Below are positions 2,549-28,960 of a stretch of 32,113 nucleotides of DNA, piece after piece. The translations under genes and the position numbers were made by a program. Every line of letters starts with the position of its first letter. The first letter of the stretch is position 1. This DNA is from an uncultured Gammaproteobacteria bacterium (GTDB lineage: Bacteria; Patescibacteriota; Patescibacteriia; UBA11705; JABHMO01), in NCBI GenBank assembly GCA_964486065.1, contig CAZAKN010000007.1:1-32113 (forward strand), in the 5' to 3' direction. Below the pieces are notes generated by a model that saw only the letters and a list, made by a program, of their open reading frames with translations, was not told where the DNA came from and made no database searches.

Positions 2549-3772
2549 TTATTCTCGCTCCGCTAAAGTTAAATTAATGATTTTCTCTTCACCTTTTTGA
2601 AATACTTTCATTTCAATTTCATCACCAGGCAAATACTCGGCGATTTCATGAACAATGGAATGATCTTCGGTTAATTTCCGACCGTTGATCTCCAAAATAA
2701 TATCATTTTCCGTCAACCCCGCTTCGTCAGCCGGACTTCCGGGTACCACGGCGATGGGATTTTCCGGTCCGCCACCGACTATCAAGGCGCCGTAATCATA
2801 AGGCAAATCATTGAGTTCCGCCAAACGCGGATTGATTTGGATATAACGCACTCCGAGCCACGGTCGCACGATCCGACCATGCTCGCGCACGCTTTGAATC
2901 ACATTTTTAGCTTGATTGATGGGAATAGCGAACCCGATCGCTCGTCCTTGCACATTCATAGCGGTATTGATACCGATAACTTCGCCGGACAAATTCAATA
3001 ATGGTCCACCCGAATTGCCGGGATTGATCGCCGCGTCGGTTTGAATAATACCGTCCAGGGATAAAAGCCGACCGTTCTCATCATAAGCTTCAATTTTCCG
3101 ATTTAATCCGCTCACCACGCCTCGCGTAACCGTATTTTCATATTCGGTCAAGGCGTTACCGATAGCCACCACGGTCTGCCCCACTTGCAAAGCCGAAGAA
3201 TCACCGACTTCAATTACCGGCAAATCTTGCGCTTCTATTTTCAAAACCGCGATATCATTAACCAAATCACGCCCCAAAATCTCCGCTTCATAAGCCGTCC
3301 CGTCATTAAACACCACTGAATAATCCGCGGACTCGTCTTCCACCACATGCTTATTGGTCAAAATAATTCCATCGGTTGCAATTACAAAACCGGTTCCGCC
3401 ACCGATCTGCTGCTTGACCGTCTCTCCACCGGAACTCTCATCTTGCCGTGGCAAAACAAATTCAAAACCCCAAAAATTAAACACATCCGGTCCGGTCATA
3501 TCATAAGAAGAAAGCTCTTTGCTGACAACAATACTAACCACGGATGGTGAAACATTTTTCACAAGTTCAATGGTAGCCGAGCCTTCTTCCAATTCCAAAA
3601 TTTTTTCTCGTTCCACCACTTTTTCATAAACATTTTTTGACCAAAAATTTTTGGCCCAATCGTAATTTTCCAAGTAAGGAACCAAAAAAGCCGAGCTGAT
3701 CGCTCCTCCCAGAAGCCCGCCAAGCAAACAAACCACTAAAAGAATAATTAATGATGTGTTTTTGATCTGCAT
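2549..3772 (-). CDS. htrA: HtrA/DegP-family trypsin-like serine protease with one PDZ domain and N-terminal membrane anchor
   Basis: Catalytic triad motifs TNKHVV, NDIAV, IQTDAAINPGNSGGPL. C-terminal PDZ (RPWLGV...GSPADEAGL). Confidence 0.93.
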   Translation of the reverse strand: MQIKNTSLIILLVVCLLGGLLGGAISSAFLVPYLENYDWAKNFWSKNVYEKVVEREKILELEEGSATIELVKNVSPSVVSIVVSKELSSYDMTGPDVFNFWGFEFVLPRQDESSGGETVKQQIGGGTGFVIATDGIILTNKHVVEDESADYSVVFNDGTAYEAEILGRDLVNDIAVLKIEAQDLPVIEVGDSSALQVGQTVVAIGNALTEYENTVTRGVVSGLNRKIEAYDENGRLLSLDGIIQTDAAINPGNSGGPLLNLSGEVIGINTAMNVQGRAIGFAIPINQAKNVIQSVREHGRIVRPWLGVRYIQINPRLAELNDLPYDYGALIVGGGPENPIAVVPGSPADEAGLTENDIILEINGRKLTEDHSIVHEIAEYLPGDEIEMKVFQKGEEKIINLTLAERE

Positions 3773-3852: not shown

Positions 3853-4098
3853 CTAAAGTCCTCCAATACTTTTCACTTTATCTATCTCTCTCATCAAACT
3901 ACCGTATTTATCAAAAACATCTTGAAAAAACGGAATACCGTAAATTATTCCCAGAATAATCGGCACAATAATCAAAATAATTTTGGCCATATTAATAATT
4001 TCCAACCACATGATATACTTACGGGTTTTTTCCGTTGATTCCAAAATCATTTTTGAATAATCAATGTTTTTTATCAATAGTTTTTTTAATTCTTCCAT
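3853..4098 (-). CDS. Small hypothetical single-pass membrane protein
   Basis: 81-aa ORF co-oriented with neighbours, hydrophobic IILIIVPIILGIIYGIPFF segment, extended -10 element upstream. Confidence 0.7.
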   Translation of the reverse strand: MEELKKLLIKNIDYSKMILESTEKTRKYIMWLEIINMAKIILIIVPIILGIIYGIPFFQDVFDKYGSLMREIDKVKSIGGL

Positions 4099-4135
4099 AA
4101 ATTTTGTTTTTATTTAATAAAATCCTCACTTAGCC

Positions 4136-4144
4136 AGTATAACA
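4136..4144 (-). promoter_or_regulatory. Extended -10 promoter element (TG-T-TATACT)
   Basis: Plus-strand AGTATAACA, about 40 nt upstream of the 81-aa ORF. Confidence 0.4.
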
Positions 4145-4165
4145 CAAAATCAAGGCACATTAAAC

Positions 4166-4191
4166 CAAAAAACAGCCCCGCACGAGCCGTT
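4166..4191 (-). terminator. Putative intrinsic terminator after nrdG
   Basis: Minus strand AAACGGCTC-GTGCG-GGGCTGTTTTTTGG: a stem with G-U pairs followed by a U-tract. Confidence 0.5.
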
Positions 4192-4201
4192 TATTTCATT
4201 C

Positions 4202-4888
4202 TTATCTGATTCTGCTTTTTTTAAACCAAGGCTTGATTTGTTCGTAAATGGCTTTTATTTCCGCTTGCGTAAAAGGTCTTTCTTCAGTAAATTTTTGATT
4301 AACCAATTTTTCCGCCGGTTTAAATTGTTGCAAATAGTATTTTTCCGCTCCTTTTATTTGACGCGCCATTTCAACAATATCTTCAGCTGAGTGCAGCGCC
4401 GGCAAAATAGTGGAACGGAATTCCGCTTTATCTCCTTGTGCAATTAAAAGAGTGGCGCTTTTTTTTACATTTTCAATATTAACGGGCATTTGCGTCACTT
4501 GTTCATATTTTACCCAAGGCGCCTTGATATCCATGGCCGTATAATCAATCAATTTTTCATCAATCAATTTTTTCAACATTGCATAGTTGGTTCCATTGGT
4601 GTCCAATTTGACCGCCATGCCCAATTTTTTAAGCTCGGCGATAAACTCCGGCAAATCCGCTTGCATGGTCGGTTCACCACCGGTTAAACAAATCCCATCC
4701 AACAAATCTTTTCTATTTTCAATGTCTTGCAATATCTTTTCAACTTCAAACTCACCATCCCCACCCCAAACCAAATCCGGATTATGACAAAACGAACAGC
4801 GAAAATTACAGCCCACCGTAAAAATCGTGGCCGCCACTTTGCCGGAATAATCAATCAATGTGGTTTTTTGATAACCGCCTATTTTCAT
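4202..4888 (-). CDS. nrdG: Anaerobic ribonucleoside-triphosphate reductase activating enzyme (radical SAM)
   Basis: GCNFRCSFCHN (CxxxCxxC), TGGEPT, KLDTNG, MDIK. Lies downstream of nrdD. Confidence 0.92.
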   Translation of the reverse strand: MKIGGYQKTTLIDYSGKVAATIFTVGCNFRCSFCHNPDLVWGGDGEFEVEKILQDIENRKDLLDGICLTGGEPTMQADLPEFIAELKKLGMAVKLDTNGTNYAMLKKLIDEKLIDYTAMDIKAPWVKYEQVTQMPVNIENVKKSATLLIAQGDKAEFRSTILPALHSAEDIVEMARQIKGAEKYYLQQFKPAEKLVNQKFTEERPFTQAEIKAIYEQIKPWFKKSRIR

Positions 4889-4915
4889 ATAAGAATATTT
4901 TTGCTTGCCATTAAA

Positions 4916-4943
4916 GAAACTCTGAAATCGCTTTCAGAGTTTC
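4916..4943 (-). terminator. Perfect 12-bp stem-loop with GNRA loop between the glycyl-radical mini-gene and nrdG
   Basis: Minus strand GAAACTCTGAAA-GCGA-TTTCAGAGTTTC followed by TTT. Confidence 0.5.
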
Positions 4944-4984
4944 GTCATTAATTCTATTAACAAAAACCAATGGGAAAGAGTAAA

Positions 4985-5131
4985 CTAGTTTTCATTAACA
5001 GCTTGGTTAAACTCCTTGCGATCCGTCCATTCGGCTTTTTTCCCGTTGTTCCAACGAGAAACCGGGCTCAGATAACCGACTACGCGTGAGTAAATTTCAC
5101 ATTTTTGTCTTTCTAGCTTTTGAGAGGTCAT
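4985..5131 (-). CDS. Stand-alone NrdD C-terminal glycyl-radical domain (48 aa; not in the supplied ORF track)
   Basis: Hand translation MTSQKLERQKCEIYSRVVGYLSPVSRWNNGKKAEWTDRKEFNQAVNEN*. YSRVVGYL...WNxGKxxE..DR is the class III RNR glycyl-radical loop and C-terminus. A-rich leader like neighbouring genes. Confidence 0.92.
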   Translation of the reverse strand: MTSQKLERQKCEIYSRVVGYLSPVSRWNNGKKAEWTDRKEFNQAVNEN

Positions 5132-5251
5132 AGACTATTTTTTTATTTTATTATTTTTATTTTATATCAACGATTTAAAAATTGTAATTACGAACAATCT
5201 GGTGAAACGCTAACCTCGGAACGCGGAACATAACACGCGGAACGGGACGAC

Positions 5252-5498
5252 AACACTGCCCACAACGCACCACACTGCTCACAACGCACCACACTGCTCA
5301 CAACGCGCCACACTGCTCACAACGCGCCACACTGCTCACAACGCGCCACACTGTTCACAACGCACCACATTGACCACAACGCACCACACTGCTCACAACG
5401 CACCACACTGCCCACAACGCGCCACACTGCTCACAACGCACCACACTACTCACAACGCGCCACACTGCCCACAACGCGCCACACTGCTCACAACGCAC
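5252..5498. repeat. Tandem array of 13 x 19-bp units, consensus CACACTGCYCACAACGCRC
   Basis: Read directly: 247 nt = 13 abutting units, no spacers, few substitutions. Confidence 0.97.
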
Positions 5499-5542
5499 TG
5501 AACACGAAACCTTGACTACTTCATAATCCGTAAAATCACATT

Positions 5543-7615
5543 TTACTTTTGCGTCGCTTTTTCCATAATATTTTTTTCCGCATTGTCCATATACCCCATT
5601 TCTTCATCACATTGAGGACAATATTCATGCTCTCCGGCGATATAACCATGCTTGGGACAAATGCTAAAAGTCGGAGTTATGGTAAAATACGGTAATTTGA
5701 AATTTTCCGCGATTTTCTTGACCAAAGATTTGGTACTATCAGCGCTGGGCATTCGTTCTCCGATAAAACCATGCAATACGGTCCCTCCCGTATATCTGGT
5801 TTGCAAATCGTCTTGTAATTTCAAAGCTTCAAAAATATCATCAGTATAACCAACCGGCAATTGAGAAGAATTGGTATAGTAAGGATCAGCTTTAGTATTG
5901 CGATATGCTTCTTCATTGGCGCAAACAATAGCCGGATAGCTTTCTTTGTCCAACTTGGCGAATCTGTAAGAAGTCCCCTCGGCCGGGGTGGCTTCCAAAT
6001 TAAACAATTCATTGGTTTGATTTTGATAATCCATCATGCGTTCACGCATAAAATCAAGTGCTTGTCGGGCGAATTTATGGCCTTCCACGGTGGTAATATC
6101 ATGCCCGACCAGATTGATACAAGCTTCATTCAAACCGTTCAAACCGATAGTATTAAAATGATTTTTCCAATATTCACCGAATCTTTCTTTTATGGAAATC
6201 AAATAATATTTGGAATAAGGATAAAGTCCGCCTTCAGTGAATTTTTCCAAAATATCTCTTTTGATTTTTAAACTTTGTTTGGCAATATCCATCAGCTCGG
6301 CTAATCTTTCAAAAAACTCTTCTTTATCTTTTGAGACATAACCCAAACGAGGCATATTGATGGTTACCACGCCGATGGAACCGGTCAAAGGATTGGCGCC
6401 GAACAAACCGCCACCGCGTTTGCGTAATTCACGATTATCCAAGCGCAAACGGCAACACATGCTACGAGCGTCTTCCGGACTCATATCGCTATTGATGAAA
6501 TTGGAAAAATACGGAATGCCGTATTTGGCGGTCATTTCCATGATTTTATTGATAATTTCAGCGTCCCAATCCCAATCAGCCGTTACATTGTAAGTGGGGA
6601 TGGGGAAACCGAACACGCGACCGCTTCTGTCCCCTTCCAGCATAACTTCCACAAACGCTTTATTGAACAAATCCATTTCTTCTTGAAATTCTCCATAAGT
6701 TTCTTTTTGCGGTTGACCACCGATAACCACCGCTTCATTGGCGATATTACTCGGCACGAAAAGATCCAAAGTTATATTGGTAAACGGAGTTTGAAAACCG
6801 ACCCTTGTCGGCACATTCATATTAAAAACAAACTCTTGAATAGTTTGTTTGACTTCATCATAACTCAATTTGTCAAAACGGATAAAAGGCGCCAAATAAG
6901 TATCTAAACTGGAAACCGCTTGCGCGCCGGCTGATTCTCCTTGTAAAGTATAGAAAAAATTGGTCAACTGTCCCAAAGCCACGCGCAAATGTTTGGCCGG
7001 CGAACTGGAAACCTTGCCACGAACTCCGCCAAACCCGCGCAAAAGCAAATCTTTCAAATCCCAACCGCAACAATAAGCTGACAATAATTGCAAATCATGA
7101 ATATGCAAATCACCGTTTACATGAGCGTCTCTGATATTTTGCGGATAAATTTTATTAAGCCAATAATGCGAACTGATAGTGGAAGAGACATAATTGTTCA
7201 GCCCTTGCAAAGAATAATCCATGTTACTGTTTTCTTTTACTTTCCAATCCAACTGTTGCAAATATTTTTCCATGAGTTCATCGGAATTGATCATTTGCTC
7301 CACTTCTCTCATCTTGGCGCGTTGATCACGATAAATAATGTAGGCTTTGGCCACTTTGATCAATTTTGATTCAATCAAGATTTCTTCAACAATATCCTGA
7401 ATTTCTTCTACCGCGGGTATGGATCTTTCATGAAATTTGGCATTTAATCTTTCAATTACTCTATCCGACAATTCTTCTGATTTTTGCTTGTCCGGCTTGC
7501 CAACGGCTCTCATGGAATTAAAAATAGCCAGTTCAATCTTGTCCGGATCAAAGTCAACAATGCGGTCGTCCCTCTTTCTGATTTGAATGATTTTATTCCC
7601 CGAATATGCACTCAT
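5543..7615 (-). CDS. nrdD: Class III (anaerobic) ribonucleoside-triphosphate reductase large subunit, lacking the C-terminal glycyl-radical domain
   Basis: N-terminal ATP cone (IRKRDDRIVDFDPDKI), HIHDL, YCCGW, RSMCCRL finger loop, EATPAEG, YYTNS, YTGGT, CPKHG...CPQC zinc site. It then stops without the RVxGY motif. Confidence 0.95.
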   Translation of the reverse strand: MSAYSGNKIIQIRKRDDRIVDFDPDKIELAIFNSMRAVGKPDKQKSEELSDRVIERLNAKFHERSIPAVEEIQDIVEEILIESKLIKVAKAYIIYRDQRAKMREVEQMINSDELMEKYLQQLDWKVKENSNMDYSLQGLNNYVSSTISSHYWLNKIYPQNIRDAHVNGDLHIHDLQLLSAYCCGWDLKDLLLRGFGGVRGKVSSSPAKHLRVALGQLTNFFYTLQGESAGAQAVSSLDTYLAPFIRFDKLSYDEVKQTIQEFVFNMNVPTRVGFQTPFTNITLDLFVPSNIANEAVVIGGQPQKETYGEFQEEMDLFNKAFVEVMLEGDRSGRVFGFPIPTYNVTADWDWDAEIINKIMEMTAKYGIPYFSNFINSDMSPEDARSMCCRLRLDNRELRKRGGGLFGANPLTGSIGVVTINMPRLGYVSKDKEEFFERLAELMDIAKQSLKIKRDILEKFTEGGLYPYSKYYLISIKERFGEYWKNHFNTIGLNGLNEACINLVGHDITTVEGHKFARQALDFMRERMMDYQNQTNELFNLEATPAEGTSYRFAKLDKESYPAIVCANEEAYRNTKADPYYTNSSQLPVGYTDDIFEALKLQDDLQTRYTGGTVLHGFIGERMPSADSTKSLVKKIAENFKLPYFTITPTFSICPKHGYIAGEHEYCPQCDEEMGYMDNAEKNIMEKATQK

Positions 7616-7853
7616 AGTAATGTTGCCAATAAAGGTTATTTCTCTTTGTTACAAATGATTTTTGAAGCTAATTTTAGCGAAGAACTGATTTTTAGAGAGA
7701 TAAAAAAATAGCCCTTGTAAAATGCTTCACCACACTTGTTTTCTCCTCTATAATTATATAAAAATTTGACCAACCCAGCAATGGTCAACCAAACCCAGTA
7801 TAATTCCCAAAGTTTAGGCAAAATTAAGTGTCGCCAAATTTTCATTATTTTTC

Positions 7854-7862
7854 TGTGGATAA
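7854..7862 (-). promoter_or_regulatory. Consensus DnaA box TTATCCACA upstream of nrdD
   Basis: Plus strand TGTGGATAA, exact 9/9 match. Single copy, so it could be chance. Confidence 0.35.
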
Positions 7863-7918
7863 AAGTTCATAAAAAAATCGCCCCGCCGAGATACGGGACG
7901 ATAAAATATGAAATGAAT

Positions 7919-8695
7919 TTAGTCTTCCAGTGAAGAAAGAAACGGTTTCAGCACTTCCGGCGGATTCATGTATTGATAACCGCCAAAGGCAATCACATCT
8001 TTTCTTTCCGTCACAATGGGCCAACCTCGCTGATGAGCAACTTTCCACAACTCCATCTCGGGCTGAAAACAAATCGGCAAACTTACTTGCTCCAAAAAAT
8101 ATGAATCCGAGTAAGTGTCGCCAATCCCCCAAACATTTTCCATGGGAACGTCACGCGCTTCTTCCGAATCCAAGATTTCTCTGACCTTGTCGGCTTTTGA
8201 TTCACCATGGAACATTTCTCTCACTCCGGTGAAACAACGGCGATTATTGTGATACTTGTCTTCATTAACCAACGCTTTGGTGCCGTAATACTCGTCCACT
8301 TTCCATAATTCAGCAAATTCTCCCACCACATCATGCTGGGAAGTGCTCAGGAAAATCACGCGCCAGCCTTGTGCCAATTTATTGATAATAATTTCGCGAG
8401 TGAAGCGATAAACCTTTTTACCATGTTCTTGCACCACTTCGCGCATCACGGTCTCATACTCGGCCTGATTGACTCCGTCCAAATATTCTTCATACAAATG
8501 GACTATTTCCATCATATAATCATTATAATGACCGTTACGATGTTGCCAATCTTTTTTCAGCTTATGATAACGAACATTAAAGACCTTGGGAAAAACCCCC
8601 AATTCAACCAATTTGTCGCACATATAAAGAAACAACGACCAACGCACGAAAGTTCCGTCAATATCCGAAAACACGATCCCTTTTGCCTTTGCCAT
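7919..8695 (-). CDS. HAD-superfamily subfamily IB (SerB-like) phosphatase
   Basis: Motif I FSDIDGT, motif II FLSTS, motif III GESKAD, motif IV GIGDTYSD. ATG at 8695 is preceded by an AAGGAG RBS. Confidence 0.88.
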   Translation of the reverse strand: MAKAKGIVFSDIDGTFVRWSLFLYMCDKLVELGVFPKVFNVRYHKLKKDWQHRNGHYNDYMMEIVHLYEEYLDGVNQAEYETVMREVVQEHGKKVYRFTREIIINKLAQGWRVIFLSTSQHDVVGEFAELWKVDEYYGTKALVNEDKYHNNRRCFTGVREMFHGESKADKVREILDSEEARDVPMENVWGIGDTYSDSYFLEQVSLPICFQPEMELWKVAHQRGWPIVTERKDVIAFGGYQYMNPPEVLKPFLSSLED

Positions 8696-8735
8696 GATAA
8701 AACTCCTTGCCGGGTGAAAAGTATTAAACATTAAT

Positions 8736-8871: not shown

Positions 8872-9579
8872 TTAACGCGTAAATTCATATTCCACTCCGT
8901 CTTTTTCCACCACCACTTGCCAACCGTTCTTCCGAGCCGTGAGCAATAATGATTGTTTCGGATTGAAACAAATCGCCTTGCCGGCCAAATCCAAATAGTG
9001 CATATCCTTATTTAAAGAACCTATCGCCCATACATTATCTTTTATAATATGTCCGAATTCGGGACGACGCATAATGCTCATTAAGGTTGCTCCGGAATTA
9101 ATTGCTTCGGGAATCAAAGAGGTGAATATACCGTCAATGATTTCATAATCAGCGCTGATCACTTCTTGAATGTTAAACTGACGCGCTACTTTTTCGGCAA
9201 TAGCTCCGGGCAAAACGGATAATCCGATAATCTGCCAATCTTGAGCTGATTTTTCTTTGAGTAAATTATCCGTGTAAAAATATTTGCGATCATGATTTTT
9301 CAAAATGGTGATTTGAGCCACTTTTTCGTAATGCTTTATCTTTGTTCCCGCCAAAAATTCATCATGAGCTTTTTGAACAGCTGAAATATAATCCTCGTAA
9401 TCAAGTTGTTTTTTCCGCCAAGCTTCTTCGGCTTGTTTATAATCAAATAAGGCCAATTTCGGCCAAACTCCTTTTTCAACCAAAGCATCGCACATTAAGC
9501 CCTGCAAATTGCCAGGCAATAAGCATTCATCCAAATTAATGAATAAAATACCTTGTTTGTGCATAAATTTTTTATTCAA
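8872..9579 (-). CDS. Degenerate HAD-IB paralog, probably catalytically inactive
   Basis: Colinear with the downstream HAD (CDALVEKGVWPK vs CDKLVELGVFPK; ICFNP/ICFQP; GWQVVVEKD/GWPIVTERKD), but motif I reads FINLDEC and motif IV GSLNKD. Start may be the ATG at 9564. Confidence 0.8.
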   Translation of the reverse strand: MNKKFMHKQGILFINLDECLLPGNLQGLMCDALVEKGVWPKLALFDYKQAEEAWRKKQLDYEDYISAVQKAHDEFLAGTKIKHYEKVAQITILKNHDRKYFYTDNLLKEKSAQDWQIIGLSVLPGAIAEKVARQFNIQEVISADYEIIDGIFTSLIPEAINSGATLMSIMRRPEFGHIIKDNVWAIGSLNKDMHYLDLAGKAICFNPKQSLLLTARKNGWQVVVEKDGVEYEFTR

Positions 9580-15046: not shown

Positions 15047-18000
15047 TTAATATCCTTCAATTACATTGCCTAAAATAGCATTAACCAATTGTGGCATTAA
15101 TTCTTCCAAGGTATCAGCACTGCCTTGCTGATATATACCATGGAAATCCTCGTTATCAGAATAATCGGTGGTATATGCCTGATAAAAATTTTGATATGGA
15201 TTTGTGCCTGATTTGTTGATAAATATCAAATTAACTCTGGCTTTTTTCCCGGCTTCAAGTTGAAGGGCAACCTTTTCCATATCACTATTTTGATATTCCC
15301 AACCTTCACCATCATCATCATTCGGATTGTCCGCGGCATCCGTAACAATAATATAGATTATATTCTGATAATCATTTATTTCTTCAGCGACTTGAAAGAA
15401 ATATTCATTTATCCATTTCGGCATGGGACCGCCTCCACGATACCATCTATTATCTGGCAAACTATATAAACTATCTAATAATTCTTTCACTTCCGTAGCA
15501 TCATCAAAAAATTTTGTTGGCTTGGTGTAATACGCATTATTAACTGGAGAATCCTTTATAGGATCACTAGTCCCTCCGTAAACACTGAAAAAAGTATTGT
15601 TATTATCAATAATCTCATCTGCTTTCTCGGCAATCTCCTCTATGAATGTTTTTTGGAAATTATTTAAATCATTATTAAATTTATCACTATTACCCGGCCC
15701 CATACTGCCGGACAAATCCAAGAAAAACGCAAATAAAGTCGGTTCTGATAAATTAATAAAATTATCTCCTTCAGTATTATCATAAGAATTACTGCAACCC
15801 GGATCTTTCGGATAATCAATCTGTCCGTCATTATCATCATCAACTCCATTCATACAAATCGGTAACCCGTTTTCAAACGCCGGCGTGCTGTCATAAACTA
15901 TGGCTTCTGACAAAACATTATCCAAATTGGGGAAAACTTGATAATCAACTTCTTCTTCTATTTCATCTGTCGGCGGTTCAAATTTCGCGCTCAAACGATA
16001 TCCCAGCCGGTAACTGTCGGTAACATTGGAAGTATAGTAATAAACATAATTTTCTTCCGGATGATTATATATCGGCGCGAACGGCTTATCTTCTCTTTCC
16101 GTTTCATCACGATTATAAAAACCAGCGTCATAACAAGTGCTTTTATCAAATGGTCGGCTACAAGCCACGCATTCATGTCCGGGAACCACGCATTGATTTC
16201 CGACCGAACAACGCAAAGTTTGCCCGTCTTGATCTTGACCGCACAATTCCCCCGCGTAAGCAGAATCGGGACCGTCAAGTCCGGGACTATTCCATTGCAG
16301 ATGATTATACGGATCCAAAGGCAAAAGCGTGCCAAGCGCTGAACCCAATTCATTTTGCCAGCTGGGCCAAATACTGAAGGTATCTCCGCGACTGTAGGTT
16401 CCGCCTTGCAAAAGTGGCACTTCATCATTATGCGATTTTTTGTATAAATCAAGATAATAACGGAGCATCACCATATCTGAAACTCTTTGCGTATTGCGGA
16501 TCAATTTATCTTTTTTAATGATTTCATTATCACCATCGCTGAGATTCAAATTGAATTTCATGAATTGTACCAGCTGAGAAACAATATTGCCGGTAGCTGA
16601 ATTACCATCTTGAGAATAACCCAGCAAATAAATATTATTGTAAACATTATTAACCTCGCCATCGGAATAAAGATTGGTAGCCGCTATATAGGTGGAAGTC
16701 CCATCCTGAATACCTTGATAACAATAGCGACCATAACGATCTTCCAAACAATCCGCTTCAAAAGAGCTTGGCGAACCGGAAACATTCGGAGCATAACGAG
16801 AATACCAAACTTCAGGTGGCAAAAATTCCGGATTCTCATAAACGCGCAAAGAAACCGCGTCCAAAGCTTCATCATTTTGTCTGGCTGAAGCGCGAGAATA
16901 TTCATCATCGCGAGTGAAAAAATATTGAGCCAAAAGCGCGGGTTCTTCCCAAGGATCACCGATTTCTTTGCATTTCGGATCATCCAAATCAATCAATCCG
17001 TTAAAATCATTATCTTCGCCATCATTACATTGATTGGCCCTGTCTTGACCGCTCGTGGCGGTCGCTTCTTCACTTAAGCCCAATGCCTCCGCCAAAGTAC
17101 CCAAATCAACGAACTCAAAATCTCCCACCGGAGTATTATTTTCCGTTCCACGGATATTGTCGCAACTAGAATTACTATCCTCCGCGGTACAATGAGTTAC
17201 CGCTGGCTCACTGATACCGGAAACATTATAATTATTATCAAAATTTACCTTGAAAAATTGTCGATATGTATTTGTACCACTTACATGTTTTCGTAAAATT
17301 AATTCATCAACATAACCGTTCAATGAAGTATTAGGAATATTGGTTTGTCCCATGCCTCCGATATAATAAGCATTATCACCGCTCCAATCATATAAATTTG
17401 TTACCAGCGGATTCATTCTAAATGATCTACTATTTATTGTTACCTCAAATAGATAATTTGGGTCACCTTCAAATCCCTCAGGGTAGTATGTTACCTTTAT
17501 ACGATTAAAACCAAATGGTATTTTTCCCAAACGATGCCCATCCGAGTGGAAGACTTTTTCTTCATCACCTCTTTTCATGCCAACTACTACAATGGCCTCA
17601 TTGGAGTTTCCGGCTTTTCGTAAAGCAATTTGCACATTTCCTCCCGGGAAATTTTTATAAAACAATCTGGCATAGCGATCTTCCGGCGTGTTTACATTCA
17701 AAACCCAAGCATCCAAACTCCATCCTTGGCTACCCATGTCAAAATTTGCCAAGTCCGGTATTTTTACATAATCAAAATTCTTATCAAAATATATACCACT
17801 TCTGGTTCCCCCTTCCAGTTCGTAAAAACTCGCGCTCTTCAAAGCCAGTTTCGGCAAATCATCATGCAAACCGTAAGGCGCACACATCTCATTACCGATT
17901 CCCAAGCAGGGAGAATCTTCCTTCGGCTTATTATATAAATCATAATCTGTACTCGGATCACACAGCGTGACGCCGTCTTGGCAAACATAAACCGGTCGGC

Positions 18001-21000
18001 ACAAACCATCGCCAATACCATCGCAAGGCGAATTGTCCGCGGGCGCGCTTCCATTATTATGAATTTCAGAATTACAAATCGTTTCCCTGTCATAACAAGT
18101 TTCAATCAAATTATCACCAAAATCACGACAATAGAACAAACCGATATTGTATTCCATTTCCCGCAAATAAGTCGGCTGTTCTTCCCCTTGATTGGTGGTA
18201 ATATCTCTCATGATAAATTTATTTTTATTATCTCCTCCCGGCGTGTATCTGTAGTCTTGCGCTATAGCACCATCCCATTCGCCATCAGCGGAATTATATT
18301 CAAACCAAGGATTATCACAAATCATCACTTCAACTTGTCCGCTTCCTTCATGTCGCTTGCCAACCGTGCTTCCGGTTTGTTCTCCGCCGATGGAGGCATT
18401 ATCCGCGGTAATCACGGCATTGGCGAAAACCAAAGCGATTCCGTCCTTGTCGCCGGTAGTGATCTCGGCCAAGCCTCGTCCGCCGAATCCCGAACCCGAA
18501 TCTTCATCTTCCCCAATATTTGTTACGATGGTCGTGTCATTCGTGTCCCAATGCCATTGCCAATCATAAACATTGGCAATGGAAATCAGTTCATCACCAT
18601 TGCGAGCATAAGCTACGGCTGAGTATGCTTCTTCATGATTTCTATCTATCACGAAATTATCCGATGGATCAACTTTTATTTCGTTTATTTTGCAAATATC
18701 CGCTCCGGTGGTGAATTGCCGCGACAAATTGACTCTATGCTCTTCATCAGCGCACAGATTTTCAATATCATTAAGTTCCACCAAATGCACTTTTTTACCT
18801 TGCAAAGCTTCCAATGGAACAATTCTTAAAACGCTTTGACCTAACTCATTTTCACTCAAATTAAGCCTCGTGGAAACTTCACACCATTCGTTTTCATCGG
18901 CAGCCAAACCGATTTTGAAAAGCAATTTTTTCACGAAAGCCACGGTTTTTTGCCACAAATCTCCCAACCAACTTACCTGATCATCGTAACGAGAATAAAG
19001 CGTTAAAATTTCTTTTTCCGATAACTTTTGATTATAAATCATGAATTCATCTATCAGCCCGTTGTAAGGCTTCATGTAATTAAAAGTACCAATATCCAAT
19101 ATTTGCCCATCCCGAACATCAGCACCCACGGACAAGGTGTCATAATCAGCATAAGGTATTTGGAAATTTTCGCTTCCCAATCTTCTTATTTTTTCACCAT
19201 TTAAATAAAATTTAACCGGCTCAGCTTCATCAGTTAAATCCAAACTCAAAACCGCGTTATGCCATGTATCAAAATCAATACTTGGTTTTGCTCTTTCAAT
19301 GGAGAATGAATCTGAGGCACTTGATTCATAAGCGAAAACAAAATTGAGCGAATTATTGCCGACAGTTGAACCGTAAACGGAAACCAACATTCGCGGATAT
19401 TCATTAGCTGAATTTTGTAAGACAAAAAGATTTTGTATATTATTAATTTTTTCATCATCCAATTTAATCAACATGGAAACAGTCATTGCTTCAGGCGCGA
19501 AATTAAAGTTTTGCAAACTGACGAAACCTTTGCCGGTAAACTTCAAAGCATTGCCGGATTTGCCGGGTTCCTGAGTGGCGCTGACTATTTTGCCGGTTAA
19601 ATTATTACCCATTTCATTTCCACCTTCATCAATATACAAATCACGCGCTTGCACCGCTCCCGCTTGCTCATCAAACTTCCAAGCAATAAAAGGTCGCGGC
19701 AAATAATCAGCCAAACATTGTTCTCCTTCCGCCAATTGGCGATATAAGCCGATATTATCTTGAGTTATGGACTCTTTGTTTACCGCTTTATCAAAAGTTA
19801 CTTTTACCAAAGAATTACGACAAACATTTTCATCGCCTTGATTCGGTTTGGTAGCGTTTTCATTGATTCCGACATTGTCAATAAAACATTGTTCACTGCG
19901 CAAAGTAACGGGAGTATTGGTGTCAACTTCGTTTACTTCGTTAGGTTCCAAACTTTCCGTAACTTCCAAATTGATTTGATCGCTTTTTTCCGAAAATCGG
20001 GTAACCGCGTTCCAGTCCAATTCACTCCATATAATATCCGCCAAACTTTTTATTTCAAATGTTTGATAAGGACTGACCCATCCCTCGCCAAACGGAACGC
20101 CTCCCGATTCACAGCCCTCGTCTTCACCTTGATCCAAATCTCTATCTCCGCAAACCGAACCGTATAAACCGGAAGAACCTTTGTTCAAACAAGTATCCGT
20201 GCAATATTCCGGCAACTCGCAAACACAACCGTCTTCATTTACCGGATCATCGCATGGCATCACGCGTAAACCATCCTCACAGCCTTCATCTATCGGCTTG
20301 CAAGCCACTTGTTTCACGCAATTAACATATTCACATTCTTCATCTTCTTCTCCATCCCAATCATAATCTTCTTTAAAACCATTACCGCAACACGCGCCAT
20401 CCGTTCCGTCGCAACTTGGAAATCCTTGCCATAAACATTTATCCGAACAATAGGGATTATTTTCAATCGCGCATTGATATTCATCATCAAGACAAGTCTC
20501 GTCTCCGTCGGGGTTACACTTTTCAACTCTATGCCAAGCCAAAGCTCCGCTCGCGTCGGTTCTGACCTGACAATCCGATTGTTCCGGACCGCAATTCTCA
20601 TCTTCGCTGTATTTTACGCAAATGGCTTCACATTCTTCACCGGCTTCAATTTCGCCATTACCGCAAATACTCGGCGCTTCACCTACCGCGTCAACTTTAT
20701 AAACCGCGCCTTTGTTCAAACATTTAGAGTCTAGCCAAGCCACTCTATTCCCCTCGGAAGTCAAAACATCAGCATCTTCCCCCGGCTCAAGAACACCGTT
20801 TCCGCATTTATATCCCTCCGTTGTTCCGGCGTTCAAACATTGCCCGGTACAAGCGCTGTTCAAGCCACGACAAACGCATTTGGCATTATCAGCTGAAGGT
20901 TGACATTCATCACCATTACTATCAAGCCAAACACAACCGAAATCACATTCTTCATCTTCAACTCCATCCTCATCATAATCTTCTTTAATACCATTACCGC

Positions 21001-24000
21001 AACAATTCACACCATTTTTCAAATCTTCACAATTGGCAAACGGTTCTTTCAAACAAATATCACTGCAACCGTCGCCATTATCTAAATCATCATCATCGCA
21101 CTCTTCACCGTCTTCTATTTCACCATTACCGCAAACCGCTCCGGGGGGCAAAGAACCTTTATTTAAACAATTATCCGTGCACCAATCAGGATTTTCTTGC
21201 TCCACGGTAACCGCAGTAAAATCTTTTAAAATATCATCTTCATCGGTTATAGACCAACCCCAAGTATAATCTTCATCAAACGGATTTAAAGCTTGTCCGC
21301 TGGCACGGCATTCATCAGGTTCGCTGTATGGCAAAGCCGAATAAGCGATTTTTTCATCATATTCTTGTGTTACATAATCATCAGGCAAAATCTCCAACCT
21401 ATTGATGCGACATTCGGTGTCATCATTTCTGGTTTTAAATATCCAGCTGAAAGCATTGAACCGACCTTGCGCACCGGCTTCATAATCTTCCGCCACACCG
21501 CAAATGCCGTTGTCCGAATAATAAACCTTGTCTGCAAAATCAGATATATCAGATATATCAAAAAAGCTTTGATAAGTGCTCGGATCGTCAACATTAAAAT
21601 TATCCGCGTCAGCAAGCAAATAACACAGCTTTTCATTTATACATTCAAAAATATAAGTATCATCTGCGTACTCCGCACCAAAAGCAAAATTATAACATCG
21701 GAAAGTTTCCGGATCTTGGCAGTTTAATGTTCCGGGTTCAGCTCCGTAACTCGCGAACGCGCCCGCTTCCGTGTCGTAACAACCACACACATAATCCAAT
21801 GCTTTGTAGCCTTCGTTGTTCGGTTCAGCTTCTCCATATCCGCCGGTTAAATCTATTTGATTATCAAAATTATTATCCAAACCGTCAGCGCAATCCCCAT
21901 TATTGCCGGAACCGTGAACATAATTCAAACCGGTTAATTTATCACCACCAAAACTTCGCGCCTCTTCAGTTATAACTACTCGGTAAAATTTATTGGGCAA
22001 TAAATTTTCAGCCGGAGAAATCAATAATTTACTGCTCAGCGGACTACCCCCGTCATAACTATTGTAATCATTAATTACAACTTCATCCAACACATTACAA
22101 TCAACGGATTGACAAGAAAATAATTTCACATTATCCGAAATCAATGTATCTCCATCCATTTGTGTATTAAAATTAGCTCCCACCGCGGCGTTTATACATG
22201 CTTCACGACAATCGGGAAAATAACCGACCACTCGCGGATCCACGAAATTTATATCCAGTTTAGCTCTTTGCGACACATCTATTCCATCAATAGTGGCTCC
22301 CGCTTGAATTATGGCAGGATCATTGGGCGCGGTTTCCGAATAAGACAGCAAACCAAATATTCCGATATCTTTTCTGTCTGCTGAAAAAAAGCTTTTGAAT
22401 TCAAGCTTGTCTTCGTGTCTCGCCACGGTCCAATTCCAATCTTTATCAGCCATGGAAATCATTTCGCATTCCGCTAGTCCCATGACCGTGTAAGCCTGTT
22501 CACCTTCGGGTGTGTCAATCAAACCTCTGGCCGGCGTTATTAACAAAGAAGTCGGTGAACAATCATCCGCTTTGGTACGAAAGCGCCATTTGTAATCAGA
22601 AGTCAAAGGTTGCGATGCCACTCCATCTTCATTTCCTTGACTTTGTATCCCAGGGATCAGATTTCCAGCCTCGTCAAAACGATCAGACAACAATTCAACT
22701 TGGTACCAGCTTTCGGCTGATAAATCATTCCATGTTTCATTTAAAAATATGGCGGTGGCTTGCTCCAATACTTCACATTCGCAACCGCCTTGTCCGTGTT
22801 GTCTTTCACTGCAAGAAGTGCCGTCTTCATAGCGACAATCAACCGCATTGTTTTCAGTGACATCATTTGAATTTGAATCAATCACTCCGGAAAACACAAT
22901 TTCACAACCGGCACCGCATTCATCCAAATCACAAGGTGGTTGACGATTTTCTTGAATCTCATCATCCGTAACGGTAGTATTACATTTTTTAACTATTACA
23001 TTATTGTTAAAACTTGCTTCATCCATCAATGTATTAAAAGTCGCGGAAATAATTCCGTTCGGACAAGCGTTGATTTCATTTTTTCGCGGTGAAACCGACT
23101 GTGTGATATTCAGCTCCGGAATACAATATCTTTCCACCACCCGTGGCACGATCGGCAAAGGTCCGGTGCTTAGAGCCCAAGCAAATTCAGATTCATAACT
23201 CATGGCGCGATCAAAACAAACCTCCTCTTTGGTTTGTCCCGAAGCCGGATCCAAAGCTCGGCAAACTCCATTACCGCAACAGACGCGCCCATCTCCGCAA
23301 TCTTCATCTTCTCCGCAAGATCCCACAGAGAACAAAATTCCGTTACTCCGCTTAAACGGCAATTGATCCGCTCCGGCGCAAATAACATCCGCGTCATCTT
23401 CTTTGCTCATGCCTTGAGGCACGGACAAACATTGACCACTCGGCTGACAACAGATATTTTCTTGCGGACAATAAAGATTTTGTCCCTCTGATATTTGACA
23501 AAGTTTTTGTTGTAAATAAACAGCGCCGGTTTGCGCTCCGGCCGGCACTCTGGCGCCGGCAATGGATTCTTCTTGCCAAGAATAATTGGCATTAAAACTC
23601 TCCACGGCCTGATCATCATCCGTTCCCGACTGTCCGGCGAAAACTATTTCCCACGGCGAAGCGTCATACACTCCGTATTCACCAAAATTAAATCCGGTTA
23701 ACCCGAAAATCGTCTGTTCCGGCCCATTGTCGGGATTTATTGAACAAATACCAGGTGCCGGCAATTCATTATTTATATTTAAAGCAACAGGATCGGATTC
23801 CACGCCCGCGGAATTGATGACTTTTACTTGGAAAGTTTCCGAAGCAACTTTGTCGGGAATATTAATTAAAATTCGCGAATTGGTCCAAGATCCTTCACCG
23901 CAAGTTAATTCTCCTTGCAAAGTTCCTTGTCCTCCCACAAATTCCACTGTTCCCACATTATTACCAAAAGCCGAACCTTGGATAGTGATCAATTGTCCGG

Positions 24001-28925: not shown

Positions 28926-28960
28926 TTGCCTGAAGCCGATCAAATCGGCCGTTATTTTAT

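What the first reader, a model, noticed from the sequence alone, without database searches (positions are those of the whole stretch)
4985..7615. Split class III ribonucleotide reductase with an autonomous 48-aa glycyl-radical subunit
Seen: NrdD (690 aa) is otherwise intact but ends 21 residues after CPQC and has no RVxGY motif. 411 nt downstream, an unannotated ORF with its own ATG encodes exactly the missing piece (CEIYSRVVGYLSPVSRWNNGKKAEWTDRK), followed by nrdG. Established: class III RNR needs the Gly radical in this loop, and O2 cleaves glycyl-radical enzymes at that Gly. For pyruvate formate-lyase, a small spare-part protein (YfiD/GrcA) supplies the domain in trans. Inference: here the radical domain is constitutively a separate, replaceable subunit, so oxygen damage would destroy only ~5 kDa rather than the whole enzyme. 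I cannot tell how widespread or previously reported this arrangement is.
Basis: partly seen in the sequence, partly recalled or inferred. Interest (0 to 1): 0.8.

Follow-up and report, generated by a model that had tools for sequence, protein, structure and literature searches.

The report
Two-piece anaerobic ribonucleotide reductase
This small-genome bacterium encodes its only enzyme for making DNA building blocks in two pieces, with the oxygen-sensitive radical-bearing tip on a separate 48-residue protein and a second copy of that tip elsewhere in the genome.

Summary
nrdD (5543..7615, -) covers the NRDD profile only to position 532 of 562. A 48-codon ORF (4985..5131, -) supplies positions 531-562, including the radical glycine. 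nrdG follows.

This is a conserved design, not a recent break. All 28 NrdD-bearing relatives of this type that I read have the same stop, a variable spacer (32-311 nt, 12 of 18 in another frame) and a small ORF with a conserved ATG. Synonymous sites are saturated and dN/dS is about 0.06. About 72 of 114 NrdD-bearing genomes in a phylum sample lack the loop on the large chain.

The same split occurs in cultured Halanaerobium, DPANN archaea and Lentisphaerota. The window's genome has no other RNR and one NrdG. It also has a second, unlinked small gene between rsmH and an ftsL-like gene.

A complex model scored 0.85 against 0.00 for the best control, though this may reflect memory of one-chain structures.

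I found no paper describing this; a 2026 review says spare-part proteins are known only for formate lyases. Earlier notes of this scan report the same layout on other DNA. The oxygen-economy rationale is untested.

The parts
5543..7615 (-). nrdD large chain, 690 aa. It has the ATP-cone, the catalytic barrel with finger loop S385-M-C-C-R-L, and a Zn ribbon (C653, H656, C666, C669). A 21-residue tail carries the invariant D670, G674 and Y675. There is no glycyl-radical loop.
   Evidence: Pfam NRDD 1-532/562 and ATP-cone. NF006126 3-656/684, 1056 bits. Invariant columns in 24 large chains. Aligns to T. maritima NrdD 4COI residues 102-610.
5132..5542 (.). Non-coding spacer of 411 nt between the two reading frames, with 9 in-frame stops. 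It is the longest spacer among the 26 loci measured.
   Evidence: Translation. Spacer lengths in 25 relatives are 32-311 nt. No Rfam family at E<=1 between 4000 and 8200 apart from two chance-level sRNA hits elsewhere.
5253..5498 (.). Tandem array of a 19-nt unit, 12.9 copies, 91% matches, GC 0.58-0.60 against about 0.38 around it. It lies inside the spacer, is specific to this genome, and is not part of the conserved design.
   Evidence: TRF. Composition. All 12 hits in the own genome lie in this array. Relatives have shorter spacers. Contigs of two runs break here.
4985..5131 (-). Small chain, 48 aa: the glycyl-radical loop of NrdD (R16-V-V-G19-Y20) with a conserved N-terminal strand R8-Q-K-C11-E-I-Y14.
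   Evidence: Pfam NRDD 531-562/562. 15 invariant columns in 45 small ORFs. Aligns to 4COI residues 615-646. dN/dS about 0.06. Complex model.
5150..5188 (-). Two overlapping promoter-like sites (9 of 12 matches each) just upstream of the small ORF. This is a consensus match only.
   Evidence: 18 such sites were found in the region against 9.9 expected from shuffles, so this is weak.
4202..4888 (-). nrdG, 228 aa, the radical-SAM activase of the NrdG2 type. It is the only one in the genome that scores above its family cut-off.
   Evidence: TIGR02495 204.7 bits, cut-off 131. Own-genome search. The order nrdD-small-nrdG holds in 24 of 28 linked loci.
4170..4192 (-). Terminator-like hairpin after nrdG.
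   Evidence: 9-pair stem followed by a T run. This is a consensus match only.

Best explanation
This is a working class III ribonucleotide reductase built from two polypeptides. The 690-aa chain carries the ATP-cone, the barrel with the finger-loop cysteines and the Zn ribbon. The 48-aa chain carries only the strand and loop that hold the radical glycine (Gly19). NrdG, encoded next to it, abstracts the hydrogen from Gly19. The N-terminal strand of the peptide (residues 9-14) docks as a beta-strand on the Zn ribbon of the large chain, and the loop inserts into the barrel, as the C-terminus does in one-chain NrdD. A second small-chain gene, unlinked and lying between rsmH and an ftsL-like gene, can feed the same barrel. 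Shown here: the anatomy, its conservation, purifying selection, and that this is the only RNR in the genome. Inferred: that the peptide is activated by NrdG, binds, and supports turnover. Also inferred, and more weakly, is that the separation pays off. After oxygen cleaves the chain at the radical glycine, only a 5-kDa part would need replacing. A free peptide may also be easier for NrdG to reach than a loop buried in the barrel.
For: (1) The Pfam profile is divided exactly between the two ORFs: 1-532 and 531-562. The same holds for NF006126: 3-656 and 649-683 of 684.
(2) Of 41 genomes (own plus relatives), 31 have NrdD. Of these, 28 are split at the same place, 2 in other families of the class are one-chain, and 1 is cut by a contig end.
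(3) All 28 have an ATG 13-21 codons before S-R-V-V-G-Y, at exactly 14 codons in 25 of them.
(4) Spacers are 32-411 nt, and in 12 of 18 loci the two frames differ.
(5) For the 31-codon core, median pS is 0.84 and pN 0.12 over 378 linked pairs. Median dN/dS is 0.064 in the 85 unsaturated pairs, with a maximum of 0.28. The 136 unlinked pairs give 0.078.
(6) The own genome is 99% complete. It has no PF02867 barrel of class I or II, no PFL-type PF01228, no deoxynucleoside kinase PF01712, and one NrdG2.
(7) 16 of the 28 split genomes have at least one unlinked extra copy, in two conserved contexts. One is mraZ-rsmH-[small]-ftsL-like. The other is upstream of a SpoIID-domain gene. Copies in the second context are nearest to each other, not to their genome's linked copy.
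(8) In the phylum sample, 114 of 401 genomes score above the cut-off. By my hand count, about 72 of these have a large chain that ends at profile position 540 or earlier, or has stops before the loop. All 19 such loci that I read have a small ORF.
(9) Cultured Halanaerobium saccharolyticum has nrdD (686 aa), then nrdG, then a small ORF.
(10) The complex model gave ipSAE 0.85, 0.85 and 0.83, against 0.00 for the best of 3 controls. That mark was reached by 58 of 80 solved complexes and 2 of 110 mismatched pairs. The runs share at least 96% of contacts and the partner's pLDDT is at least 77. I used my own alignments, so the calibration counts hold only roughly. In the model, small-chain residues 9-14 pair with large-chain residues 649-653 and 662-666, and the invariant tail 673-675 lies in the interface.
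Against: There is no biochemical or expression evidence. No run holding this DNA is on record as RNA. One run labelled metatranscriptomic has contigs at 5045-5133, 5170-5285 and 6178-6328, but its RNA status is a guess. The complex model can pass from memory, because one-chain NrdD structures are solved (4COI, 8P23, 1H78). It therefore shows likeness, not binding. Its confident-contact list does not name the finger-loop cysteines C387/C388, so the proximity of Gly19 to the thiyl site is not shown. I see no Shine-Dalgarno-like sequence before the small ORF by direct reading, but nrdD and nrdG also lack one. The adaptive rationale (cheap replacement, easier activation) has no test here. A GC-rich 246-nt repeat array between the genes is unexplained.
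Confidence: 0.8

Rival explanations
1. The enzyme works as two chains, but the fission is neutral. The gene broke once or a few times at a permissive loop after the Zn ribbon and the break was fixed, as in other genes-in-pieces. Extra copies are only dosage or regulatory variants. There is no repair or spare-part function.
For: Split RNR genes without an obvious benefit are known. Examples are class II NrdJa/NrdJb (passages of PMC9669993) and phage Aeh1 nrdA-a/nrdA-b, plus 6 split nrdD genes in phages (passages of PMC3653736). Small genomes under drift fix such changes. The tree needs about 10 changes of state between split and one-chain forms, which fits a permissive site.
Against: Unlinked second copies are kept in conserved gene contexts across genera and families, under purifying selection. 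Some genomes with a complete one-chain NrdD keep an extra stand-alone radical domain beside it: G116, and four named Minisyncoccales, Paceibacterota and Patescibacteria records. Plain fission does not predict that. The split recurs at two or more different cut points, after the Zn ribbon and inside it.
Confidence: 0.3
2. The small proteins are not the radical carrier. They would be decoys or regulators of NrdG or NrdD, while the large chain gets its radical in another way, for instance at the invariant G674-Y675 in its own tail.
For: G674 and Y675 are invariant in 24 large chains. In one of 63 tails (G017), the sequence after this G-Y resembles the loop of the small chain: 8.6 bits, E 7e-5 per sequence, about 0.005 after 63 tests.
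Against: The tail glycine lies 5 residues after the last Zn-ribbon cysteine, against 12 in one-chain relatives. It lacks the R-V-V context. In the model it sits in the docking interface with the small chain, not in the barrel. The small chain keeps every conserved loop position: R16, V18, G19, Y20, P23, W27, N28, G30, K31.
Confidence: 0.07
3. Recoding or splicing restores a single chain through an intron, an intein, stop-codon read-through or ribosomal bypassing of the spacer.
For: In this window the two ORFs happen to be in the same frame. RNR genes are frequent hosts of introns and inteins (PMC3653736 passages). Some relatives carry inteins elsewhere in nrdD.
Against: There are 9 in-frame stops in the spacer. 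The frames differ in 12 of 18 relatives. Spacers of 32-411 nt share no length. No Rfam intron family matches at E<=1. The small ORF has a conserved ATG at a fixed distance from the loop. Unlinked copies have no upstream exon at all.
Confidence: 0.03
4. This is a decaying pseudogene or an assembly artefact. nrdD would have been broken recently, perhaps by the repeat array, and the organism would live on scavenged deoxynucleosides.
For: The spacer holds an unusual GC-rich tandem array at which short-read contigs break. Organisms with such small genomes are often dependent on hosts.
Against: The same split exists without the array in all 27 split relatives. Both parts are under strong purifying selection. 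The stop codon and the ATG lie in unique sequence that is reproduced in a run of another study. No deoxynucleoside kinase and no other RNR was found in the 99%-complete genome.
Confidence: 0.02

Closest known systems
One-chain class III ribonucleotide reductase NrdD with activase NrdG (solved: Thermotoga maritima 4COI/4U3E, Prevotella copri 8P23, phage T4 1H78)
   Same: It has the same ATP-cone, barrel, finger loop, Zn ribbon and glycyl loop sequence, and the same NrdG2-type activase next to it. One-chain forms exist in the same class and phylum (G026, G037).
   Different: The chain is cut between the Zn ribbon and the glycyl loop, between 4COI residues 610 and 615. Each part has grown a short extension: a 21-aa tail with invariant D670/G674/Y675 on the large chain, and an 8-aa N-terminus on the small one. 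The small part is a gene of its own with its own start codon, and it is duplicated elsewhere in the genome.
GrcA/YfiD of E. coli (and Y06I of phage T4), the autonomous glycyl-radical 'spare part' of pyruvate formate-lyase
   Same: Both are small stand-alone proteins that carry the glycyl-radical loop of a large glycyl radical enzyme and are presumably activated by that enzyme's activase. The unlinked second copy here, and the stand-alone domains beside complete NrdD genes in other genomes, resemble a spare part.
   Different: It is not homologous to the PFL radical domain: no PF01228 match, only PF13597. GrcA supplements a parent enzyme that has its own loop. Here the parent has none, so the small chain is obligatory. 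At 48 aa it lacks any folded domain beyond the strand and loop. Passages of the 2026 review PMC13450708 state that formate lyases are the only GRE class with identified spare-part proteins. That Y06I belongs here is recalled; I read no paper on it.
Split class II RNR NrdJa/NrdJb (Pseudomonas aeruginosa; Thermus phage phiYS40)
   Same: An RNR catalytic chain is encoded as two consecutive genes, and the C-terminal functional module is on the second chain (passages of PMC9669993; PMC3653736).
   Different: It belongs to another RNR class. NrdJb carries IscU-like and Zn-finger domains for re-reduction of the active site, not the radical site, and it is a folded protein rather than a 48-aa peptide.
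Genes-in-pieces RNRs of phages (Aeh1 nrdA-a/nrdA-b split by mobE; 6 split nrdD genes listed by Dwivedi et al. 2013)
   Same: RNR genes are interrupted and, at least for Aeh1 nrdA, still functional as separate chains (PMC3653736 passages; PMC3045599 title and start of abstract only).
   Different: Those splits are tied to introns, inteins or homing-endonuclease genes, or are unexplained recent breaks. Here no mobile element lies in the spacer. The cut isolates the radical loop, and it is ancient and widespread. The word 'glycyl' does not occur in PMC3653736.

Membership tests
Class III RNR catalytic subunit NrdD (Pfam PF13597; NCBIfam NF006126/TIGR02487) | Catalytic barrel with finger-loop cysteine(s) | tested here: met
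   The large ORF matches PF13597 1-532/562, E 2.8e-185, and NF006126 at 1056 bits against a cut-off of 548. S385-M-C387-C388-R-L is invariant in 24 chains.
Class III RNR catalytic subunit NrdD (Pfam PF13597; NCBIfam NF006126/TIGR02487) | C-terminal Zn ribbon before the glycyl loop | tested here: met
   C653, H656, C666 and C669 sit on the large chain and are invariant or nearly so. Metal binding itself is not testable here.
Class III RNR catalytic subunit NrdD (Pfam PF13597; NCBIfam NF006126/TIGR02487) | Radical glycine loop on the same polypeptide as the barrel | tested here: not met
   The large chain ends at profile position 532. The loop (531-562) is on the 48-aa ORF, behind 9 stops. The feature is met only in trans.
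Class III RNR catalytic subunit NrdD (Pfam PF13597; NCBIfam NF006126/TIGR02487) | Dedicated radical-SAM activase NrdG | tested here: met
   TIGR02495 NrdG2 scores 204.7 bits against a cut-off of 131, and the gene starts 96 nt downstream of the small ORF. It is the only copy above the cut-off in the genome.
Class III RNR catalytic subunit NrdD (Pfam PF13597; NCBIfam NF006126/TIGR02487) | Glycyl radical formation and NTP reduction | not testable with these tools
   This needs anaerobic reconstitution, EPR and an activity assay.
[quoted passage not shown] | Homology to the PFL-type glycyl radical domain (PF01228) | tested here: not met
   The small ORF matches only PF13597. There is no PF01228 match anywhere in the own genome.
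[quoted passage not shown] | Small stand-alone protein that carries the radical glycine loop of a larger enzyme | tested here: met
   It is 48 aa with its own ATG. A second, unlinked 45-aa copy exists.
[quoted passage not shown] | Coexists with a parent enzyme that has its own glycyl loop | tested here: not met
   The only NrdD of this genome lacks the loop. The feature is met in other genomes: G116, L113, L114, L156 and L162 have a complete NrdD plus an adjacent stand-alone radical domain.
[quoted passage not shown] | Restores activity to the oxygen-cleaved parent enzyme | not testable with these tools
   This needs an experiment.
RNR genes split by mobile elements (group I intron, intein, free-standing homing endonuclease) | Intervening intron, intein or endonuclease gene at the break | tested here: not met
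   No Rfam intron at E<=1. The spacer holds only short repeat-derived ORFs of 36-47 aa. Spacers in relatives are 32-311 nt. Inteins occur in relatives, but at other sites in the barrel.

The most novel reading that the evidence does not exclude
NrdD-type stand-alone glycyl-radical proteins are a widespread, so far undescribed class of exchangeable protein cofactors. NrdG would charge the free 5-kDa peptide, which then plugs into a long-lived barrel and is discarded after oxygen damage. In this lineage two differently placed genes supply it, one in the nrd operon and one inside the cell-division (mraZ-rsmH-ftsL) cluster. The capacity to make dNTPs would then be tied to division and to recovery from oxygen exposure.
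Probability: 0.35. Interest if true: 0.85.

Novelty: new variant of a known kind. Interest (0 to 1): 0.7.

Why it matters
Glycyl radical enzymes are destroyed by oxygen at the radical glycine. The only known countermeasure of the spare-part kind is GrcA for pyruvate formate-lyase. A natural class III RNR whose radical site is a separate, duplicated 5-kDa peptide would extend that principle to the enzyme that makes DNA precursors in anaerobes.

It would also give a simple system for studying how an activase reaches its glycine, using a free peptide substrate instead of a loop buried in a barrel.

There is a practical point for annotation. About 72 of 114 NrdD-bearing genomes in my phylum sample carry the split. 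Pipelines that name the 690-aa chain 'NrdD' and drop or mislabel the peptide give an incomplete picture, and surveys that require the glycine motif would score these organisms as lacking a working RNR.

Halanaerobium saccharolyticum is cultured and has the same layout, so the idea is directly testable.

Tried and rejected
- **Intron or ribozyme in the spacer.** The Rfam scan at E<=1 over 4000-8200 gave only two chance-level sRNA hits elsewhere.
- **A false lead.** One search printed 'open_frame_aa ~780' for both pieces in 8 relatives, which I first read as fused genes with a linker. Reading the sequences showed stops between the pieces in all of them.
- **Large-chain tail as a decayed resident glycyl loop.** Only 1 of 63 tails (G017) gave a weak match, at 8.6 bits, and a second was marginal. 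I keep this as a hint only.
- **Expression.** No RNA holder is listed. One run labelled metatranscriptomic has three contigs on the stretch, but its RNA status is a guess.
- **Origin of the 19-nt repeat.** It occurs nowhere else in the genome and I found no function for it.
- **Single origin of the split.** The fasttree of 105 barrels needs 10 changes, of which at least 2 are forced by starred branches. 25 of 130 rows were left out: those longer than 830 aa or shorter than 580 aa, those scoring under 300 bits, and 3 duplicates of relatives. No rooted test or AU test was run, so direction (fission or re-fusion) is open.
- One search had a regex slip and returned nothing. It was corrected. In one search the automatic classes mislabel two Lentisphaerota loci (L148, L151), so its counts are approximate.
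- **Complex model.** Only the linked small chain was modelled, not the unlinked paralogue or NrdG with the peptide.
- **Papers.** Eight searches found no description of a separate NrdD glycyl-radical subunit. Supplements are closed, so the sequence tables of the RNR phylogeny papers (PMC9531940, PMC9669993) may list such proteins without my seeing them.
Full report
**The observation**

On the minus strand the window holds three consecutive reading frames:
- a 690-aa ORF at 5543..7615;
- a 48-aa ORF at 4985..5131;
- a 228-aa ORF at 4202..4888.

Pfam places an ATP-cone (10-100) and the NRDD family (128-672) on the first, but only positions 1-532 of the 562-position profile. The 48-aa ORF matches positions 531-562 (E 1.7e-9, 37.3 bits, cut-off 26.2). 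The third ORF is a radical-SAM protein.

NCBIfam agrees. The large ORF covers NF006126 positions 3-656 of 684 and the small one covers 649-683. The third ORF is NrdG2 (TIGR02495, 204.7 bits, cut-off 131).

The large chain ends 21 residues after C-P-Q-C. The 411-nt spacer has 9 in-frame stops. The ATG of the small ORF is the only start codon in its open frame.

Against solved structures, the large chain aligns to T. maritima NrdD 4COI residues 102-610 and the small-chain profile to residues 615-646. The cut therefore falls just after the Zn ribbon and just before the glycyl loop.

**Is it an artefact or a recent break?**

No. Contigs of a run from a different study cover 4340-5282 and 5429-5668 with 3 and 8 differences. 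That includes the small ORF and the nrdD stop.

The only insecure part is a 19-nt x 12.9 tandem array (5253..5498; GC about 0.6 against 0.38 around it). All short-read contigs break there. The unit occurs nowhere else in the genome, and relatives lack the extra length. The array is a local curiosity inside the spacer, not the cause of the split.

**Relatives**

I searched 41 genomes (own plus 40 relatives) with PF13597. 31 have NrdD. Reading the sequences gave:
- 28 have the same architecture;
- 2, in other families of the class (G026, G037), are ordinary one-chain proteins;
- 1 is cut by a contig end.

In the 28, the large chain stops 10-50 residues after the last Zn-ribbon cysteine. A small ORF begins with an ATG 13-21 codons before S-R-V-V-G-Y, at exactly 14 codons in 25 of them.

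Within the window's order, 24 of 25 other genomes have nrdD and all 24 are split.

Spacers measure 32-311 nt in 25 relatives. In 12 of 18 loci the two ORFs are in different frames. This excludes read-through, bypassing and splicing as a general mechanism.

nrdG follows the small ORF on the same strand in 24 of 28 loci.

Four relatives (G002, G006, G009, G018) carry large in-frame insertions elsewhere in the barrel. The one in G018 has LAGLIDADG and weak intein-splicing hits.

**Selection**

In an alignment of 45 small ORFs, 15 columns are invariant: R8, C11, E12, Y14, R16, V18, G19, Y20, P23, W27, N28, G30, K31, E34 and R38.

For the 31-codon core, synonymous sites are near saturation:

| Pair set | Pairs | Median pS | Median pN | Median dN/dS (unsaturated pairs) |
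|---|---|---|---|---|
| Linked | 378 | 0.84 | 0.12 | 0.064 (max 0.28) |
| Unlinked | 136 | 0.87 | 0.13 | 0.078 |

The 24 large chains are 77% identical on average. Their invariant columns include the finger loop and, in the tail, D670, G674 and Y675.

**A second gene for the small chain**

The own genome has another stand-alone match to the end of the NRDD profile, on contig C1. It is a 45-aa ORF that lies between rsmH and a 117-aa ftsL-like ORF. It is 73% identical to the linked copy, with pS 0.86 between them.

16 of the 28 split genomes have at least one such unlinked copy, 17 copies in all. They sit in two conserved contexts:
- mraZ-rsmH-[small]-ftsL-like, in 6 copies across two families;
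- directly beside a SpoIID-domain gene, often near a deoxynucleoside kinase, in 10 copies of one family.

One copy lies next to a flavodoxin-like gene. The copies in the second context are closest to each other, not to the linked copy of their own genome. That duplication is therefore old and retained.

**Is the enzyme needed?**

The genome is 965 kb, 99% complete, in 20 contigs. It has no PF02867 barrel (class I or II), no PFL-type glycyl radical domain and no deoxynucleoside kinase. It has a single NrdG2 above the cut-off.

As far as the assembly shows, the split enzyme is the only route to deoxynucleotides.

**Spread**

A sample of 401 genomes of the phylum (at least 80% complete) gave 116 with a match, 114 of them above the cut-off. 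My hand count of the printed table is:
- 43 genomes have a copy that reaches profile position 560-562 without stops;
- 62 have a copy that ends at position 540 or earlier;
- 10 have stops between barrel and loop.

One genome (G371) has both kinds. So about 72 of 114 carry a split copy. 49 further matches were not printed, so I did not see the small ORF for all of them.

I read 20 of these loci. All 19 split ones have a small ORF with the loop.

There are variants:
- G116 has a complete 772-aa NrdD plus an adjacent stand-alone radical domain of about 95 aa with its own Zn-ribbon-like cysteines.
- G104, G079 and G149 are cut inside the Zn ribbon.
- G090 is cut inside the second cysteine pair.
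- G091 is one chain with a linker where the others are cut.

Public protein collections hold 49 clusters of 42-81 aa like the window's peptide. They are named 'anaerobic ribonucleoside-triphosphate reductase' or 'hypothetical protein', from Patescibacteria, Falkowbacteria, Bacillota and Halanaerobium saccharolyticum.

I also looked at 80 loci of species-representative genomes fetched with the Halanaerobium peptide. This is a biased sample, the best 80 of 562. Automatic classification, which mislabels two loci (L148 and L151), gave:
- 33 ordinary one-chain genes;
- about 20 small ORFs after a truncated NrdD;
- 9 small ORFs without NrdD within 900 nt upstream;
- 11 stand-alone radical domains of about 100-200 aa, mostly in Desulfobacterales, Syntrophales and related records;
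- 4 complete NrdD genes with an extra domain beside them.

The small ORFs after a truncated NrdD come from Halanaerobiaceae, Dojkabacteria, Saccharibacteria, Micrarchaeota, Iainarchaeum, Woesearchaeota, Nanoarchaeia, and Lentisphaerota or Planctomycetota.

In H. saccharolyticum the order is nrdD (686 aa), nrdG, then the small ORF.

A fasttree of 105 barrels, built with the C-terminus removed, puts the window in an all-split clade of 21 rows (support 99) and 26 rows (support 82). It needs 10 changes of state overall, of which at least 2 are forced by well-supported branches. Shuffled labels need 35 on average. The layout therefore arose, was transferred or was reverted several times. Two different cut points argue for at least two origins.

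**How it probably works**

The complex model of the large chain (residues 105-690) with the small chain gave ipSAE 0.85, 0.85 and 0.83, against 0.00 for the best of three controls. That mark was reached by 58 of 80 solved complexes and 2 of 110 mismatched pairs. The runs share at least 96% of contacts and the partner's pLDDT is at least 77. I supplied my own alignments, so the calibration counts hold only roughly.

One-chain NrdD structures are solved, so this pass may come from memory. It shows that the two parts can be laid together like a normal NrdD, not that they bind.

In the model:
- residues 9-14 of the peptide pair with strands 649-653 and 662-666 of the Zn ribbon;
- Cys11 touches C653 and C666;
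- the invariant tail residues 673-675 of the large chain lie in the interface;
- the rest of the peptide contacts barrel residues.

The finger-loop cysteines are not in the confident-contact list.

My reading is that the conserved extensions on both sides of the cut (the D-E-E-M-G-Y tail, and the K-L-E-R-Q-K strand start) serve as docking elements. NrdG activates Gly19, and the loop inserts into the barrel as in one-chain enzymes.

Why keep it separate? Two ideas are consistent with the data: cheaper replacement after oxygen cleavage, and easier access for the activase. Neither is tested. The retained second copies, and the stand-alone domains beside complete NrdD genes, favour a spare-part logic over plain neutral fission. 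They do not prove it.

**Comparison with what is known**

It works like a class III RNR. It meets every family feature that I could test, except that the radical loop is not on the barrel's polypeptide.

It resembles GrcA/YfiD in principle but is not homologous to it. Here the small protein is obligatory rather than a supplement.

[quoted passage not shown] Split class II NrdJa/b is known (PMC9669993 passages). So are phage genes-in-pieces, including 6 split nrdD genes (PMC3653736 passages). Those accounts concern introns, inteins, endonucleases or unexplained breaks. The last paper never uses the word 'glycyl'.

Eight full-text searches found no description of a separate NrdD radical subunit. 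Subscription journals and supplements were not searchable.

Eight earlier notes of this scan describe the same layout on other DNA: phages, Asgard archaea, methanogens and their viruses, and Caldisericota. They also report finding no paper. They are unchecked AI notes and I did not test their loci.

**Verdict**

This is a real, ancient and widespread two-gene form of the anaerobic ribonucleotide reductase, here with two genes for the radical-bearing peptide. The separate-subunit reading is well supported. The oxygen-economy rationale is plausible and untested. I rate it a new variant of a known kind, with interest 0.7.

Noticed in passing
window 5253..5498: A GC-rich 19-nt tandem array (12.9 copies, 91% matches) lies in the AT-rich spacer between nrdD and the small ORF. 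It is unique in the genome and absent from relatives' shorter spacers. Short-read contigs of two runs break inside it, so its copy number is uncertain. Its function is unknown.
   Followed up: partly
own genome G000:C1:105417-105608 (locus L002 1489..1623, minus strand): A second, unlinked 45-aa glycyl-radical peptide gene lies between rsmH (MraW) and a 117-aa ftsL-like ORF, with tgt downstream. Five relatives (G004, G016, G019, G022, G025) have a copy at the same position in the cell-division cluster.
   Followed up: yes
L023, L024, L027-L034 (relatives G001, G002, G008-G015): Another conserved home of an extra small-chain gene is directly beside a SpoIID-domain gene of about 540 aa. In at least two genomes a deoxynucleoside kinase gene is close by.
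   Followed up: partly
L049 (G116) 2912..3208; L113, L114, L156, L162: Complete one-chain NrdD genes are followed by a stand-alone radical domain of about 95-105 aa that has its own C-x2-C...C-x2-C-like motifs. This is a layout closer to GrcA than the window's.
   Followed up: partly
L112, L123, L124, L126, L133, L137, L138, L153, L155, L159, L164: Stand-alone NrdD-type radical domains of about 100-200 aa occur without an NrdD gene within 900 nt upstream. They are mostly in records labelled Desulfobacterales, Syntrophales, Thermodesulfobacteriota or Deltaproteobacteria. I did not look at their contexts.
   Followed up: no
L127, L140, L148, L151, L163 (Lentisphaerota/Planctomycetota records); L050-L052, L056 (G104, G079, G149, G090): Some splits fall inside the Zn ribbon, so the metal site would be shared between the two chains. 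L148 shows the small ORF repeated three times in tandem.
   Followed up: no
L053 (G371): Two nrdD genes lie side by side. One is a 774-aa one-chain form in which the residue after the radical glycine is K instead of Y. The other is a 589-aa-frame split form with its own 46-aa small ORF.
   Followed up: no
L039, L041, L043, L046 (G002, G006, G009, G018): Large in-frame insertions (frames of 1039-1419 aa) lie at NRDD profile positions of about 157 and about 263. The one in G018 has LAGLIDADG and weak intein-splicing hits, so inteins coexist with the split.
   Followed up: partly
window 7919..8731 and 8872..9579 (minus strand): Two HAD-family hydrolase genes lie directly upstream of nrdD, followed by ftsZ and ftsA. 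Whether they act on nucleotides is unknown.
   Followed up: no
window 15047..26305 and 26331..28943 (minus strand): A 3752-aa ORF and an 870-aa ORF have T4SS-pilin-like N-termini plus Ig-like, TIG and laminin-G domains. They are probably giant surface proteins.
   Followed up: no
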